DNA from: Candidatus Enterousia sp.
Lineage (GTDB): Bacteria > Pseudomonadota > Alphaproteobacteria > Rs-D84
Length of the DNA: 64,000 nt
Reading direction: 5' to 3'
Assembly: GCA_045613785.1 (NCBI GenBank)
Contig: JAZLBQ010000004.1
Location: forward strand, 47,830 to 111,829
The notes beneath the pieces are model-generated. The model was not told where the DNA came from. It ran no database searches and was given only the letters and a program-made list of their open reading frames with translations. Both the position numbers and the translations under genes were made by a program. This document shows positions 398-4,782 of this stretch, piece after piece (within the stretch, counting starts at the first letter, position 1; each line of letters opens with the position of its first letter).

Positions 398-472
398 TGG
401 CACTCCCAACGGGAATCGAACCCGTGTTACCAGAATGAGAATCTGATGTCCTAACCGCTAGACGATGGGAGC
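398..472 (-). tRNA. tRNA-Glu. By my manual folding the anticodon loop is TTCTCAT, which gives anticodon CUC (a UUC family member; the reading is uncertain).
   Basis: Reverse complement GCTCCCATCGTCTAGCGGTTAGGACATCAGATTCTCATTCTGGTAACACGGGTTCGATTCCCGTTGGGAGTGCCA. It folds as a cloverleaf with a 7-bp acceptor stem, D arm, TTCGATT T-loop, 4-nt variable loop and encoded CCA. Close to canonical bacterial tRNA-Glu. Confidence 0.8.
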
Positions 473-563
473 GTTGTGCACCTATGATATACCTAAAAAG
501 CAGAATTTTCAAATGAAACTTTTCCTTGCACTAAAAAAAATAATAGCCTAGGATAAAAACACA

Positions 564-1304
564 ATGGCCAGCCCCTTACGCAGATTTTTTACAAACATTA
601 TATGTGGTTGCGTTTATAACAAGGATAAGCGTAAACGTTTACGTGTTGTTTTAAATTCTTCTATGATGGATTGTCTGCGTTTTATTCACAAGAATACGGG
701 CAATCGCCCACGTCGAATAAAAACATTTGTTGGTTATCAGGCACGCAGTCTTTTGATTAGCACAAACAATGAATATATTTTCAAGTTTCCACTTCGTCGT
801 GCAGATTCTGATTATTTAACACGTCGTGAAAAGCGTCTGGTTGATGTTTTTCAAAAGATATCACCGATATATATACCGCCTGTGGACGTTTATGAACACC
901 GTAACCACCTGGTTCGTCGTTATCCGTTTATCAGCGGAGCGCAATTGCGGCAAATGCCATTAGAGGTTGCACTGGAAAATATTGATATACTGGCAGAACA
1001 GATTGCAGAGTTTATTTTTGTTATTGGTTGCAGTGATCCAGAAACTGTTCGTGATTTAAAGCCGACGCCAGACGCCAAGCCTGGTTATATGTATGGTTGG
1101 TCTCAGGGTGATATATGTGATAATTTTATAGTTGATATGAAAACGATGAAAATAATCGCTTTTATTGATTGGGAAGATTGTGTCTTTGGAGATTTTTCAA
1201 AAACGTTTACAAGTAATCGTCGTTCGCCACAGCGTGAATTGATGAGTGCTGTTCGTGAAAAATATGAAAAGTTGTATGCATCACAATATTCAAAAGTCAA
1301 CTAA
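564..1304 (+). CDS. Aminoglycoside-phosphotransferase / eukaryotic-like kinase fold protein (APH/ChoK family-like), 246 aa
   Basis: C-terminal motifs WSQGDICDNFIVD ... IIAFIDWEDCVFGD resemble the catalytic loop (D-x-x-x-x-N) and the DFG-like metal-binding segment of APH/choline-kinase-like kinases. The canonical His of HGD is replaced by Gln. ATG at 564. Confidence 0.65.
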   Translation: MASPLRRFFTNIICGCVYNKDKRKRLRVVLNSSMMDCLRFIHKNTGNRPRRIKTFVGYQARSLLISTNNEYIFKFPLRRADSDYLTRREKRLVDVFQKISPIYIPPVDVYEHRNHLVRRYPFISGAQLRQMPLEVALENIDILAEQIAEFIFVIGCSDPETVRDLKPTPDAKPGYMYGWSQGDICDNFIVDMKTMKIIAFIDWEDCVFGDFSKTFTSNRRSPQRELMSAVREKYEKLYASQYSKVN

Positions 1305-1321
1305 TGAACGAAATCGAAAAA

Positions 1322-1345
1322 AAAACCGCCAATCGGCGGATTTTT
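1322..1345. terminator. Bidirectional rho-independent terminator between convergent genes (ccgcc-aatc-ggcgg flanked by A-run and T-run)
   Basis: Hairpin CCGCCAATCGGCGG with aaaaaaaa upstream and ttttt downstream. It sits between the stop of 564..1304 (+) and the stop of 1347..3368 (-). Confidence 0.55.
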
Positions 1346-1346
1346 A

Positions 1347-3454: not shown

Positions 3455-3491
3455 AAATTTGGTTGGGGTCGGCCAGCATAACGCGAACAAA

Positions 3492-4430
3492 TTAGTCTCG
3501 TTCTTTTTGAGAGTTTAGTATTTTCGTATTTTGTTCATTGATGTCTTTTACAAAATTTTGCAGAGACATATTGTATATACCATCGTTTGCTGAATTTTTT
3601 AATTTATTTGATATGTCGCATAAATATGCAATGTCCACATCTTCTATATTAATTTTTACATCTGATATTTTATTATATTCATTAATTACCCTACGCGTTA
3701 AATTACGTGAAATAAAAGACAACTTATAAAAATCCAAAAAGCATTTTTGAACACATGTATCACCGAAATCAAAGATTCCAACTAATTCTTTTGTGTCTGG
3801 ATTCAGCGCCATGTTTCTGCCGTGCATATCAAAATGGCATACAACGTCTGGGTAATTTGTATTTATCTGTGCGTGATTATATTTATTAAAAAGGGATTCT
3901 GGTAATTTGTTTTTTAATTCAGAAAATCCGTTCAAGCGCATTTGGCCTAATGTGAAAGCGACATTTGTTTTTGATGCTGGTATTTGCTCTGATTTTTTAC
4001 ATGTGTGTATGACAGACAAAAATACAGCTATTTTTTTTGCCAAATTTACCCTTTGGGGTTCCGTCAATTGTACATATTGAGATGGTATTAATGTTTCACC
4101 GACCACAGCCTTGTGCCAAACAAATGGAAATGTTTCGTGTGGCACATGATGTGTTTCAGGAATATCTAACCCCGAATTTTTAGATAGGTTTTCAGACTTA
4201 AAAAAAGTAAGTTTTTGCATTTCAGCAAGCATGTCATTTAATTTGTTTTCTGTGTTTGGAAATCGTATCGCGTATTCTATATTGTCTTTACTAACACATT
4301 TTAGAGTCAGTGCTCCGCCACCTGCACAGTATGGTTCGATGTTTTTGGGTTCAAATGGAATTTTGCTTTGCTTATACGCATCAAACAAAATTTTTTTTGC
4401 GGCATCTAAATCGGGGCGTTGGATTGGCAT
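3492..4430 (-). CDS. APH / eukaryotic-like protein kinase fold protein, 312 aa
   Basis: Brenner-type catalytic motif VCHFDMHGRNMALNP (H-x-D-x-x-x-x-N) and FDFGD (DFG), typical of aminoglycoside phosphotransferase/CotH-like kinases. Confidence 0.75.
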   Translation of the reverse strand: MPIQRPDLDAAKKILFDAYKQSKIPFEPKNIEPYCAGGGALTLKCVSKDNIEYAIRFPNTENKLNDMLAEMQKLTFFKSENLSKNSGLDIPETHHVPHETFPFVWHKAVVGETLIPSQYVQLTEPQRVNLAKKIAVFLSVIHTCKKSEQIPASKTNVAFTLGQMRLNGFSELKNKLPESLFNKYNHAQINTNYPDVVCHFDMHGRNMALNPDTKELVGIFDFGDTCVQKCFLDFYKLSFISRNLTRRVINEYNKISDVKINIEDVDIAYLCDISNKLKNSANDGIYNMSLQNFVKDINEQNTKILNSQKERD

Positions 4431-4675
4431 CGTTGGACTCCTTTTCGCAGCTATTATACCATATATATAGTTCTTGCTGAATGAAAATCAATGCGTTGCT
4501 GGCCGACCGCAAACACTTTGAATAAAAAGACTAGTTAGAGCAGATTTTCATTAGTTTTATAAGATTGTTGTTAGTTCGAATGTTTTTAGCGATTTATAAG
4601 CGGTTCGAAAGTGTCAATGAAGAGATAATTTTTCATAAATAAACTTTCGAACTTGCCAAAGTCTTGTATCCCAAA

Positions 4676-4702
4676 CAAAAAATGCCCCAGCGGGCATTTT
4701 AA
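4676..4702 (-). terminator. Terminator just 3' of tRNA-Gln (minus strand)
   Basis: Hairpin ATGCCC-CAGC-GGGCAT. On the minus strand it is followed by TTTTTT. It lies immediately downstream of the tRNA 3' end. Confidence 0.5.
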
Positions 4703-4708
4703 TAACTG

Positions 4709-4782
4709 TGGTTGGGGCGCACGGATTCGAACCATGATAAAGAGAACCAAAATCTCTTGTCCTACCATTAGACGACACCCCA
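4709..4782 (-). tRNA. tRNA-Gln (anticodon UUG)
   Basis: Reverse complement TGGGGTGTCGTCTAATGGTAGGACAAGAGATTTTGGTTCTCTTTATCATGGTTCGAATCCGTGCGCCCCAACCA. Anticodon loop TTTTGGT gives UUG. All cloverleaf stems pair. CCA is encoded. Confidence 0.9.

What the first reader, a model, noticed from the sequence alone, without database searches (positions are those of the whole stretch)
398..4782. tRNA-Glu/tRNA-Gln-bracketed islet encoding two eukaryotic-like-kinase-fold proteins and a 673-aa membrane-anchored protein with a basic C-terminus (candidate effector cassette)
Between two minus-strand tRNA genes lie three non-housekeeping genes. Each has its own terminator. They are: an APH/ChoK-like protein (+ strand, catalytic D and N retained but HGD changed to QGD); a large protein with one internal transmembrane segment and a Lys/Arg-rich C-terminal 40 aa; and a second, better-conserved APH/kinase-fold protein (HFDMHGRN...FDFGD). 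Kinase-fold proteins and positively charged C-terminal tails are recurrent features of T4SS substrates in intracellular bacteria, and the islet lies downstream of the 3' end of tRNA-Gln, a common insertion position. No integrase or direct repeat of the tRNA 3' end was found, so if it was acquired, the event is old.
Basis: partly seen in the sequence, partly recalled or inferred. Interest (0 to 1): 0.65.

Follow-up and report, generated by a model that had tools for sequence, protein, structure and literature searches.

The report
Variable tRNA-Gln gene-insertion hotspot, gut symbiont
The stretch is a tRNA-linked hotspot for gene gain and loss in a tiny-genome gut alphaproteobacterium (Candidatus Enterousia): it holds a recently swapped-in kinase-like gene, a decaying ADP-ribosyltransferase gene accidentally fused to a membrane-protein gene, and a second lineage-specific kinase-like gene, and nothing supports type IV secretion effectors.

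Summary
The framing does not hold.

The organism is Candidatus Enterousia (order Rs-D84), a gut alphaproteobacterium whose published MAGs are under 1 Mb. It is not a known T4SS pathogen. The block MarR–HD–tRNA-Gln…tRNA-Glu–MerR–GyrA is syntenic across the order, and the content between the tRNAs varies.

1. **APH-312 cassette.** Window 4714..3458 is a discrete 1.26-kb single-gene module. The site is empty in the closest relative. Cassette dS is 0.10–0.25 against species whose flanking genes have dS of 1.8 or more, so the exchange was recent. Two relatives have a tyrosine integrase at this tRNA.
2. **The 673-aa ORF.** It is two ancestral genes joined by a 22-bp deletion and a 1-bp insertion:
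   - an ART-PolyVal-type ADP-ribosyltransferase, damaged independently in three lineages;
   - a conserved bitopic membrane protein that keeps its own promoter.
3. **The ART–HD link.** In 15 related genomes this ART domain is fused to the HD hydrolase that here lies just across tRNA-Gln.
4. **The two kinase-like genes.** Both APH-fold genes belong to lineage-restricted families under purifying selection. Their nearest solved relatives are APH(2'') enzymes, at far below resistance-family thresholds.

Their functions remain inferred.

The parts
398..472 (-). tRNA-Glu(CTC), the conserved distal boundary of the variable interval
   Evidence: ARAGORN and Rfam at 61 bits. It is present in the same block in most related loci.
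564..1304 (+). APH-246: a short APH-fold phosphotransferase-like gene of a small lineage-restricted family. K74, E89, D183, N187 and D202 are retained. The family consensus is HGD; this copy has QGD.
   Evidence: Pfam APH at 28.8 bits. The family has 69 representatives among 1.84 billion proteins. It usually lies next to tRNA-Glu in relatives, sometimes in tandem. It is absent in L001. dN/dS is 0.13.
1326..1339 (.). Bidirectional intrinsic terminator shared by the two convergent genes
1347..2549 (-). CT400: the ancestral stand-alone gene for a bitopic membrane protein (400 aa from M274). It has an N-terminal helical part, a TM segment (residues 436-456 of the long ORF), a variable linker, and a near-invariant C-terminal region of about 150 aa that ends in a basic tail.
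   Evidence: It is called as a 398-400-aa gene in relatives P0001 and P0002, and L007 has a 356-aa homologue. dN/dS is 0.13 against L001. There is no Pfam hit, and the AF2 model has low confidence here.
2565..2571 (-). A-run carrying one extra A relative to L003. This restores the frame with the ATG of CT400.
   Evidence: DNA alignment A8
2584..2612 (-). Sigma-70-like promoter TTGACT-17-TATCAT, followed by an AAGGG ribosome-binding site, now inside the long ORF. It is the retained promoter of CT400.
   Evidence: Promoter scan. The sequence is conserved with L003 and L001 in the alignment.
2673..2674 (-). Site of a 22-bp deletion relative to L003 and L001. It removes the conserved post-ART segment and skips the ancestral stop codon of the ART gene.
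   Evidence: The ancestral reading frame is shared by L001 and L003.
2745..3368 (-). ART domain (residues 1-208): a divergent ADP-ribosyltransferase of the ART-PolyVal type. Family-invariant residues include H13, S26-H27-F28-G29, D88, E137, R168, E174, Y183, N185, E188, Y195, F198 and R199.
3378..3405 (-). Promoter-like site (TTGACT-16-AATAAT with TG) upstream of the ART gene. The adjoining TTTGCTATACG segment is what directly follows tRNA-Gln at the empty site of L001.
3425..3471 (-). attR-like end of the cassette: a partial repeat of the tRNA-Gln 3' end (CGACCCCAACCA, 3460-3471) followed by a terminator hairpin
   Evidence: The homology block shared with L017 ends at 3458.
3492..4430 (-). 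APH-312: an APH-fold phosphotransferase with an HxDxxxxN loop and a DFGD motif. The beta-3 Lys is replaced by a family-invariant Arg56. It is the only gene of the mobile cassette.
   Evidence: Pfam APH at 49.1 bits. Orthologues share 57-96% identity. The nearest solved structures are APH(2'') enzymes. dS is 0.10-0.25 against genomes whose flanks have dS above 1.8.
4497..4515 (.). Inverted copy of the cassette's right end (19 nt, 89% complementary to 3460-3478). Its role is unexplained.
4679..4782 (-). tRNA-Gln(TTG) (4709-4782) with its terminator hairpin (4679-4700). The last 14 nt of the tRNA are the integration core.
   Evidence: Six related genomes carry exact 14-nt duplicates. Two have an integrase next to this tRNA.
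4830..5519 (-). HD-domain phosphohydrolase (HDIG/YqeK-like). It is homologous to the C-terminal half of the ART-HD fusion proteins of related genomes.
   Evidence: Pfam HD at 23.0 bits. Alignments. It is present in 51 loci. Fusion map. NCBIfam HDIG/YqeK matches for the fusion protein P0005.

Best explanation
The interval is one locus built in three layers, not one cassette. It is the hypervariable segment of a block (OEP-MarR-HD-tRNA-Gln ... tRNA-Glu-MerR-GyrA) that is syntenic throughout Candidatus Enterousia and the order Rs-D84.

**Layer 1 (shown).** Window 4714..3458 is a 1.26-kb single-gene module carrying APH-312.
- It sits at the 3' end of tRNA-Gln, between the tRNA and a partial copy of its last nucleotides.
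- The site is empty in the closest relative.
- The module was exchanged recently between species.
- Inferred: it entered by tyrosine-recombinase integration at the tRNA 3' end. Such an integrase sits at this tRNA in two relatives but is absent here, so the cassette is now stranded or moves by flanking homology.

**Layer 2 (shown).** The 673-codon ORF is two ancestral genes, a stand-alone ART-PolyVal-type ADP-ribosyltransferase and a 400-aa bitopic membrane protein.
- A 22-bp deletion and a 1-bp insertion joined them.
- The ART gene carries independent lesions in all three sampled lineages, so it is being lost.
- The membrane-protein gene keeps its own promoter and is under purifying selection.

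**Layer 3 (shown).** APH-246 belongs to a small lineage-restricted family that is the usual neighbour of tRNA-Glu.

**Mechanism (inferred).**
- The ART domain uses NAD+ to ADP-ribosylate a target.
- The adjacent HD hydrolase processes or reverses the ADP-ribose-phosphate product. I infer this because it is fused to this ART in 15 related genomes and is retained even where the ART is lost.
- The two APH-fold proteins are small-molecule O-phosphotransferases with unknown substrates.
- The positive-inside rule places the ART and the N-terminal part of the fused protein in the cytoplasm. That argues against a secreted toxin in this form.
For: **Organism and synteny.** All 51 loci found with the HD profile come from Candidatus Enterousia or gut Alphaproteobacteria MAGs. 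Taxonomy is, and the reduced genomes are described in PMC12306168.

**Cassette.**
- L001, 90% identical in the flanks, goes straight from tRNA-Gln and its terminator to the TTTTGCTATACG segment.
- Window 4714..3458 is 90.9% identical to L017 and 93.8% to L015, while the flanks are about 74% identical.
- dS for APH-312 is 0.096 and 0.249, against 1.81 and 2.65 for MarR.
- The tRNA 3'-end repeat is seen, and exact 14-nt duplicates occur in six genomes.
- L003 carries different cargo at the same site.
- The integrase PF00589 (E 1.4e-12) lies next to tRNA-Gln in L034; L054 holds a homologue of that ORF at the same position.

**Fusion.**
- The alignment shows the two indels.
- Relatives call a 398-400-aa gene.
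- L002-L005 carry a 188-bp deletion and L001 a deletion of about 550 bp in the ART gene.

**ART-HD link.** Fusion proteins P0003-P0008 with Pfam HD, plus P0009/P0010 shown by alignment, and 15 genome loci with fusions.

**Kinase-like genes.** Evidence is. Purifying selection is shown.
Against: - No integrase lies in the window's islet, and the repeat here is only 9 nt exact. On its own that is weak: 10 of 100 shuffles give two or more copies somewhere in the window.
- All comparison genomes are MAGs or metagenome contigs. Chimeric assembly, or indel errors such as the extra A in a homopolymer run, cannot be excluded. The 22-bp deletion is less likely to be an artefact.
- The window's ART domain does not itself reach any Pfam threshold, and a profile search of PDB sequences found nothing.
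- The catalytic triad cannot be assigned with confidence. There is no Tyr in strand 2, and the invariant E188 lies in a low-confidence loop.
- No biochemical evidence exists for any of the four proteins.
- The HD-ART functional coupling rests on fusion and proximity only. Proximity may reflect inherited synteny.
- Membrane topology comes from the positive-inside rule alone.
Confidence: 0.6

Rival explanations
1. The three genes form a cassette of secreted effectors, two eukaryotic-like kinases and a membrane-targeted protein with a basic C-terminal signal. An intracellular bacterium translocates them through a type IV secretion system.
For: - The locus is tRNA-associated, low in GC and variable.
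- Rs-D84 bacteria are proposed to depend on partner cells.
- ART domains of this family are typical of injected phage and conjugative-element proteins (PMC5512222).
- The basic tail is real.
Against: - The host is a gut Enterousia, not a known T4SS organism. No T4SS gene was seen in any fetched locus.
- The kinase-fold proteins match only APH(2'') and Mph small-molecule kinases, not protein kinases.
- Orthologues are widespread in the lineage with dN/dS of about 0.1.
- The basic tail belongs to a near-invariant 150-aa region.
- The predicted topology puts the ART in the cytoplasm.
- The long ORF is a recent two-gene fusion.
Confidence: 0.05
2. Antibiotic or xenobiotic resistance islet. APH-312, and perhaps APH-246, phosphorylate aminoglycoside- or macrolide-like compounds. 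The cassette spreads among gut Enterousia under drug selection.
For: - The nearest characterised relatives of both families are APH(2'') and Mph enzymes.
- The APH-312 catalytic motifs are intact.
- The cassette is mobile between species living in animal guts.
Against: - Scores are 30-50 bits against NCBIfam resistance cut-offs of 475-625.
- The beta-3 Lys is replaced by Arg in the whole APH-312 family.
- Orthologues at 57-66% identity sit in a different, stable chromosomal context in more distant MAGs. That suggests a long-standing lineage function rather than an imported resistance gene.
Confidence: 0.12
3. Conflict module. The ART is a toxin or abortive-infection effector, the HD enzyme is its antidote and reverses the modification, and the kinase-like proteins act as sensors or regulators.
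For: - The ART-PolyVal clade groups with toxin ARTs.
- One homologue is fused to a KAP P-loop NTPase that matches candidate defence families.
- The ART is repeatedly lost while the HD is retained, as with orphan immunity genes.
- One 763-aa protein combines HD with an inactive APH-312-like domain.
Against: - None of the four window proteins, nor the ART-HD fusion tested (P0005), matches a PADLOC model at a meaningful level.
- Toxin and antidote fused in one polypeptide in 15 genomes is unusual for toxin-antitoxin logic.
- The ART-HD gene is single-copy and syntenic across the order, like a vertically inherited gene.
Confidence: 0.13
4. Surface-variation or salvage locus. The kinase-like proteins phosphorylate sugars, amino sugars or head-group precursors for envelope decoration or metabolite salvage, in an organism that lacks most biosynthesis.
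For: - Cargo at the same site in relatives is dominated by envelope and surface functions. These include autotransporters, a Slam protein, a subtilase, a sugar O-acetyltransferase-like hexapeptide protein and an S51 peptidase.
- The genomes lack many biosynthetic pathways.
- From general knowledge, APH-fold sugar and head-group kinases exist, for example choline kinases and anomeric amino-sugar kinases. One family member weakly hits Choline_kinase.
Against: - There is no specific similarity to any characterised sugar or choline kinase family above noise.
- No glycosyl- or nucleotidyl-transferase partner lies in the window's islet.
Confidence: 0.1

Closest known systems
tRNA-gene-targeted genomic islands and integrative elements (tyrosine recombinase, att core in the tRNA 3' end)
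   Same: - The insertion lies exactly at the 3' end of tRNA-Gln.
- The tRNA 3' end is duplicated at the far boundary.
- The nearest relative has an empty site.
- GC is lower than the backbone.
- Different strains carry alternative cargo, and several genomes have serial repeats.
- Two relatives have a Phage_integrase gene at this tRNA.
   Different: - The unit here is only 1.26 kb with a single cargo gene and no integrase or excisionase.
- The repeat in this genome has decayed to 9 nt.
- The host genome is under 1 Mb, where such islands are uncommon.
- A 19-nt inverted repeat also flanks the gene and is unexplained.
ART-PolyVal (Pfam PF18760), the ADP-ribosyltransferase domain of phage and conjugative-element polyvalent proteins (Iyer et al. 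2017; Tox-ART-HYD2 clade)
   Same: - It has the ART fold.
- It shares the motifs HG[TS], PLSHFG[TS], Y-x-N-x-x-E-D-x-G-x-x-SY-x-x-FRP with a 3158-aa phage polyvalent protein.
   Different: - It is chromosomal, in a symbiont with a reduced genome.
- It occurs as a small stand-alone protein or fused to an HD hydrolase, not within a giant multidomain virion protein.
- It carries an insertion of about 60 residues.
- The window copy is below the Pfam threshold.
- The published H-Y-D triad cannot be mapped cleanly.
APH(2'') aminoglycoside and Mph macrolide phosphotransferases (Pfam APH, PF01636)
   Same: - It has the kinase-like fold, the HxDxxxxN catalytic loop and the DFG-like Asp.
- These enzymes are the only solved relatives detected.
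   Different: - Identity is about 20% or lower, and scores are more than ten-fold below the resistance-family cut-offs.
- APH-312 has Arg in place of the beta-3 Lys.
- APH-246 is unusually short (about 245 aa) and has a conserved basic, Cys-containing N-terminal extension.
HD-domain phosphohydrolases of the HDIG/YqeK type
   Same: - The H...HD...D metal-binding motifs are present.
- The best matches are HDIG, YqeK-like Ap4A hydrolase and two uncharacterised HD hydrolase structures (2pq7, YedJ).
   Different: - This is a subfamily seen here only in Rs-D84 and Enterousia MAGs.
- It is uniquely fused to an ART domain in many members.
- The substrate is unknown.

Membership tests
ART superfamily / ART-PolyVal (PF18760) | Match to the Pfam model at or above the gathering score | tested here: not met
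   The window protein has no PF18760 hit at E<=1. Homologue P0012 reaches 31.7 bits against the cut-off of 31.2, and seven others score 14-27 bits.
ART superfamily / ART-PolyVal (PF18760) | ART fold (split beta-sheet with flanking helices) | tested here: met
ART superfamily / ART-PolyVal (PF18760) | Shared sequence motifs with bona fide polyvalent-protein ART domains | tested here: met
   A phage 3158-aa ORF in L067 carries FHST..F.PLSHFGT..AA and IDGVIYTNVVEDYGSTSYIAFRP, against FFHGT..F.PLSHFGT..AA and FDGFHYVNNEEDPGSISYVVFRP in the window.
ART superfamily / ART-PolyVal (PF18760) | Active-site triad: His in strand 1, Tyr in strand 2, Asp/Glu at strand 5 (PMC5512222) | tested here: inconclusive
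   H13 is invariant and lies in strand 1. Strand 2 has invariant S26-H27-F28 but no Tyr. The invariant E188 (followed by D189) lies in the loop before strand 5, where pLDDT is below 50.
ART superfamily / ART-PolyVal (PF18760) | NAD+-dependent ADP-ribosyl transfer | not testable with these tools
   This needs an enzyme assay.
APH phosphotransferase family (PF01636) | Pfam gathering score reached | tested here: met
   The two proteins score 49.1 and 28.8 bits against a cut-off of 23.2. Thirteen of 17 APH-246 family members match.
APH phosphotransferase family (PF01636) | Catalytic loop HxDxxxxN and DFG-like Asp | tested here: met
   APH-312 has invariant H199, D201, N206 and D221. APH-246 has invariant D183, N187 and D202. 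The His of the loop is not invariant and is Q in the window copy.
APH phosphotransferase family (PF01636) | Beta-3 Lys paired with a helix-C Glu | tested here: inconclusive
   APH-246 has invariant K74 and E89. APH-312 has invariant R56 at the equivalent FP-motif position.
Acquired aminoglycoside/macrolide resistance kinases (NCBIfam APH(2''), Mph models) | Score at or above the curated family cut-off | tested here: not met
   Best scores are 31 bits for APH-312 and 16 bits for APH-246, against cut-offs of 475-625.
tRNA-targeted integrative island | Insertion at a tRNA 3' end with a direct repeat of that end at the other boundary | tested here: met
   The window has a 9-nt repeat at 4709-4717 and 3460-3468, each followed by a hairpin. 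Six relatives have exact 14-nt repeats. The homology block with L017 ends at 4714 and 3458.
tRNA-targeted integrative island | Empty site in a close relative and evidence of lateral origin | tested here: met
   L001 has the empty site. Cassette dS is 0.10-0.25 against flank dS of 1.8 or more. L003 carries alternative cargo.
tRNA-targeted integrative island | Integrase encoded within the element | tested here: not met
   No recombinase lies between 398 and 4782. In relative L034 a PF00589 integrase directly follows the same tRNA, and L054 has a homologue of that ORF in the same position.
Type IV secretion effectors | Host encodes a T4SS | not testable with these tools
   Only 64 kb of the genome is available. 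No T4SS gene was seen in the fetched loci, and the genus description does not mention one.
Type IV secretion effectors | Eukaryotic-like or effector-type domains and a C-terminal translocation signal | tested here: not met
   The kinase folds are APH(2'')/Mph-like. The basic tail is part of a near-invariant domain of about 150 aa. No translocation predictor or assay was available.
HD phosphohydrolase (PF01966) | Pfam gathering score and H...HD...D motif | tested here: met
   The score is 23.0 bits against a cut-off of 22. Invariant H56, H60, D90, H102, H136, D152 and D154 are seen in the family alignment. The fusion protein P0005 matches HDIG at 41 bits.

The most novel reading that the evidence does not exclude
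The ART-PolyVal-type domain, its HD partner and the two APH-like families may form a previously undescribed NAD+-dependent modification system, so far seen only in the reduced-genome gut order Rs-D84. The ART would ADP-ribosylate a target and the HD would cleave the ADP-ribose pyrophosphate or phosphate. The kinase-like modules would supply or recognise the phosphorylated substrate, or act as inactive adaptors as in the 763-aa triple fusion. The bacteria would use the system to exploit or defend against the partner cells they depend on, and the tRNA-Gln hotspot would act as its exchange platform.
Probability: 0.1. Interest if true: 0.7.

Novelty: new member of a known kind. Interest (0 to 1): 0.38.

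Why it matters
Candidatus Enterousia and the order Rs-D84 are uncultured gut bacteria with genomes under 1 Mb. They are thought to live off other cells, and how they interact with partners is unknown.

This locus shows three things:
- Even such small genomes keep an active tRNA-linked site where single genes are exchanged between species.
- That site collects surface proteins and enzyme modules.
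- A phage-type ADP-ribosyltransferase domain has been domesticated as a chromosomal ART-HD protein across the order, and is now being lost in one genus.

The ART-HD fusion gives a testable hypothesis for the function of an uncharacterised HD subfamily. As a cautionary case, it also shows how a long 'multidomain' ORF can be the by-product of two indels in a decaying gene.

Tried and rejected
**Steps that led nowhere**
- Exact-sequence look-ups of three window proteins found nothing, so this genome is not in that collection.
- PADLOC gave no match for any of the four window proteins.
- A profile search of PDB sequences with the ART alignment found nothing meaningful.
- The full-length AF2 model of the 673-aa ORF has pLDDT 52, and only the ART domain is confident. 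I therefore ran no fold search on the C-terminal part, and its fold remains unknown.
- Pfam found nothing for CT400 or for several cargo ORFs in relatives.

**Ideas considered and dropped or left open**
The genome-collection scan ruled that out.
- I asked whether the ART–HD gene had been split by the insertion. The gene order is wrong for that: HD lies upstream of the tRNA and the ART downstream. The window's ART is also only 38-48% identical to any fused ART, while its HD is 93% identical to that of L001.
- I checked whether the hexapeptide protein next to APH-312 in L007 was a Vat/CatB-type resistance acetyltransferase. Its best matches are sugar O-acetyltransferases.
- The 'p136' matches that overlap tRNA-Gln in the locus maps are spurious ORFs across the tRNA, and I ignored them.

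Full report
**Observation**

ARAGORN finds tRNA-Glu(ctc) at 398-472(-) and tRNA-Gln(ttg) at 4709-4782(-). Rfam confirms both, at 61 and 58 bits. Three ORFs lie between them: 564-1304(+) of 246 aa, 1347-3368(-) of 673 aa, and 3492-4430(-) of 312 aa.

- The 246- and 312-aa proteins pass the Pfam APH threshold, at 28.8 and 49.1 bits against 23.2.
- The 673-aa protein has no Pfam or NCBIfam match.
- It has one hydrophobic segment at residues 436-456. Its last 40 residues carry 11 K/R against 1 D/E.
- Terminator hairpins follow each unit.
- GC is 0.33-0.38, against 0.42-0.43 for neighbouring housekeeping genes.

So the listed features are real. The 673-aa 'protein' also needs reinterpretation.

**Organism and context**

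None of the three window proteins I looked up is in the exact-match collection. Homologues place the window in Candidatus Enterousia. The HD gene next to tRNA-Gln (4830-5519) recovers 51 loci, all from Candidatus Enterousia or gut Alphaproteobacteria MAGs. NCBI taxonomy lists the genus as Alphaproteobacteria incertae sedis. A 2025 paper describes Enterousia (GTDB order Rs-D84) as gut bacteria with genomes of about 0.75-1.0 Mb, lacking most biosynthesis and probably dependent on partner cells (PMC12306168).

I mapped domain profiles, flank markers and tRNAs onto all loci. The block OEP<MarR<[HD or ART-HD]>tRNA-Gln>…tRNA-Glu>p205 MerR<GyrA< is conserved across the order.

- In ten more distant genomes, including Ca. 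Enterousia avicola, the only gene between the two tRNAs is an ART-HD fusion.
- In most Enterousia genomes the HD gene stands alone, and the tRNA-Gln to tRNA-Glu interval holds 0-6 kb of very diverse cargo.

The tRNA bracket is therefore ancestral. It is not the signature of one inserted islet.

**Layer 1: the APH-312 cassette**

- *Empty site.* The closest relative is L001 (Ca. Enterousia sp. JAZTYU01), about 90% identical in the flanks. It lacks window 4673..2826. There, tRNA-Gln and its terminator run straight into TTTTGCTATACG. In the window that same sequence follows a second copy of the tRNA end.
- *The repeat.* The second copy is CGACCCCAACCA at 3460-3471, followed by a hairpin (dG -18.7, z -4.5). 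It is the only other CCCCAACCA in the 64 kb.
- *Homology block.* Window 4714..3458, which runs exactly from the tRNA end to the repeat, is 90.9% identical to L017 and 93.8% to L015. The flanks of those genomes are about 74% identical to the window.
- *Divergence.* dS for APH-312 is 0.096 against L006 and 0.249 against L017. For the adjacent MarR gene it is 1.81 and 2.65, and HD is saturated.
- *Alternative cargo.* Strains 97.7% identical to the window (L003) carry a 167-aa ORF and a DUF4116-repeat protein in front of the same repeat.
- *The att core.* Exact 14-nt duplicates of the tRNA-Gln 3' end (GTGCGCCCCAACCA), each with a hairpin, occur once or twice downstream of the tRNA in six other genomes.
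- *The integrase.* In L034 a 498-aa Phage_integrase protein (PF00589, E 1.4e-12) directly follows this tRNA. L054 has a homologue of that ORF at the same position.

I conclude that tRNA-Gln is an integration hotspot and that the APH-312 module was exchanged between species recently. The window's cassette has no integrase. Integrase-mediated entry is inferred, not shown.

**Layer 2: the 673-aa ORF**

*Homologues split the ORF in two.* A homology search separates it into two parts.

- Residues 274-673 match 398-400-aa proteins in the closest relatives.
- Residues 1-208 match the N-terminal half of 450-487-aa proteins. The C-terminal half of those proteins is an HD domain homologous to the neighbouring gene 4830-5519.

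*The N-terminal domain is an ADP-ribosyltransferase.*

- It gives a confident AF2 model, with pLDDT 77.5 and pTM 0.79.
- More distant homologues hit Pfam ART-PolyVal, one of them above threshold.
- A viral-contig scan finds phage relatives. One is a 3158-aa polyvalent protein carrying the same motifs.
- The family's describers assign this ART to an H-Y-D clade related to protein-modifying toxins (PMC5512222).
- In this family H13, S26-H27-F28-G29, E188 and R199 are among the invariant residues. I could not map the triad with confidence.

*The two parts were joined by two indels.* A DNA alignment with L003 and L001 shows how.

- The window has a 22-bp deletion at 2673/2674. It removes the conserved post-ART segment and skips the ancestral stop codon.
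- It also has one extra A in the run at 2565-2571. This restores the frame with the ATG of the downstream gene at 2549.
- The promoter of that downstream gene, TTGACT-17-TATCAT at 2612-2584, and its ribosome-binding site are still there, now inside the ORF.

*The ART gene is decaying; the membrane-protein gene is not.*

- In L002-L005 the ART gene has a 188-bp deletion and frameshifts. In L001 only its last 26 or so codons remain. The ART gene is thus damaged independently in all three lineages.
- The 400-aa gene is under purifying selection, with dN/dS 0.13.
- Its C-terminal 150 or so residues, including the basic tail, are almost invariant even in a homologue with 44% overall identity.
- The charge balance around the TM segment predicts that the N-terminal part is cytoplasmic.
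- The rest of the full-length AF2 model is unreliable.

**Layer 3: APH-246**

This protein belongs to a small family, with 69 representatives at E<=1e-3 among 1.84 billion proteins.

- Members are typically about 245 aa, with invariant K74, E89, D183, N187 and D202. The family consensus is HGD, and the window copy has QGD.
- In relatives the gene lies next to tRNA-Glu, sometimes in tandem. It is missing in L001.
- It is a remote paralogue of APH-312 (hhalign probability 95%).
- Profile searches of solved structures hit only APH(2'') and macrolide phosphotransferases for both families.
- The scores are more than ten-fold below the NCBIfam resistance cut-offs.
- APH-312 has an invariant Arg where the beta-3 Lys is expected.

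**Functional inference**

*Shown:* the ART fold, the homology to ART-PolyVal, the ART-HD fusions in 15 genome loci, and retention of the HD gene where the ART is lost.

*Inferred:*

- The ART uses NAD+ to modify a target.
- The HDIG/YqeK-like HD enzyme processes or reverses the product.

One 763-aa protein (L058) combines a divergent N-terminal region, this HD domain and an APH-312-like domain. The catalytic Asp residues of that APH domain are replaced by Asn. This is a single hint that the kinase-like modules are physically linked to the system.

PADLOC gives no support for a known defence system. Cargo at the hotspot in relatives is rich in surface functions: autotransporters, a Slam protein, a subtilase and a sugar O-acetyltransferase-like protein. 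The kinase substrates remain unknown. I favour small-molecule kinases over protein kinases, on the homology evidence.

**Verdict**

The finding is a real, variable, tRNA-linked accessory region. It is a member of a known kind, an integration hotspot at a tRNA 3' end, in an unusual host.

- The effector/T4SS reading is not supported.
- The most interesting by-products are the ART-HD gene family of the order Rs-D84 and the demonstration that the long ORF is a two-gene fusion produced during gene decay.
- All comparisons rest on MAGs, so the indels and cassette boundaries should be confirmed on closed genomes.

Noticed in passing
L058:5149-7437 (+): A 763-aa ORF in an uncultured Alphaproteobacteria MAG combines three parts. 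The first is a divergent N-terminal region with AHGT and IYVVDGKDFRPE motifs, possibly a degenerate ART. The second is the HD domain. The third is an APH-312-like domain whose catalytic and Mg-binding Asp residues are replaced by Asn, which looks like a pseudokinase.
   Followed up: partly
L034:6913-8406 (+); L054:687-2162 (+): In L034 a tyrosine recombinase (Phage_integrase plus DUF6538) lies directly downstream of the same tRNA-Gln. L054 has a homologue of that ORF in the same position. The far end of that island lies outside the fetched DNA.
   Followed up: partly
window 3460-3478 and 4497-4515: A 19-nt inverted repeat (89% complementary, inner 12 nt perfect) flanks the APH-312 gene inside the cassette. 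The right arm overlaps the tRNA-end repeat. It could be a recombination site or chance.
   Followed up: no
L003:131-1654: In strains 97.7% identical to the window, the APH-312 position is occupied by a 167-aa ORF and a 331-aa protein made of eight DUF4116 repeats.
   Followed up: partly
L049:3185-4489 and 5158-6567: Two ART-HD genes lie in tandem in one MAG. The HD part of the first copy is much more divergent (30% identity to the window HD).
   Followed up: no
P0011 (326 aa, metagenome): The same ART domain is fused to the start of a KAP-family P-loop NTPase, which weakly matches the candidate defence families PDC-S20 and PDC-S49. The contig is only 1.2 kb, so the protein is probably truncated.
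   Followed up: no
L010-L012 (APH-312 orthologue at 66% identity): In more distant Alphaproteobacteria MAGs the APH-312 orthologue lies in a different, stable context (GatB … autotransporter – APH – tRNA-Lys – OMP). It is again immediately beside a tRNA gene.
   Followed up: no
L030:8280-9635; L025:7002-8324; L006:8312-11380: Cargo at the tRNA-Gln hotspot in relatives includes a Slam-family surface lipoprotein assembly modifier, a subtilase and roughly 1000-aa autotransporters. Most other cargo ORFs are singletons with no Pfam match.
   Followed up: partly
window 564-660 (N-terminus of APH-246): The APH-246 family has a conserved N-terminal extension of about 35 residues that is rich in basic residues and contains a Cys-Gly motif (R.F..N..CG.I.NK..R..VR..LN). 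Typical APH enzymes lack it.
   Followed up: no
window 23001-24000: This is a second low-GC stretch (0.34) in the window, with a local reversal of GC skew from about 23 to 28 kb. It was not examined.
   Followed up: no
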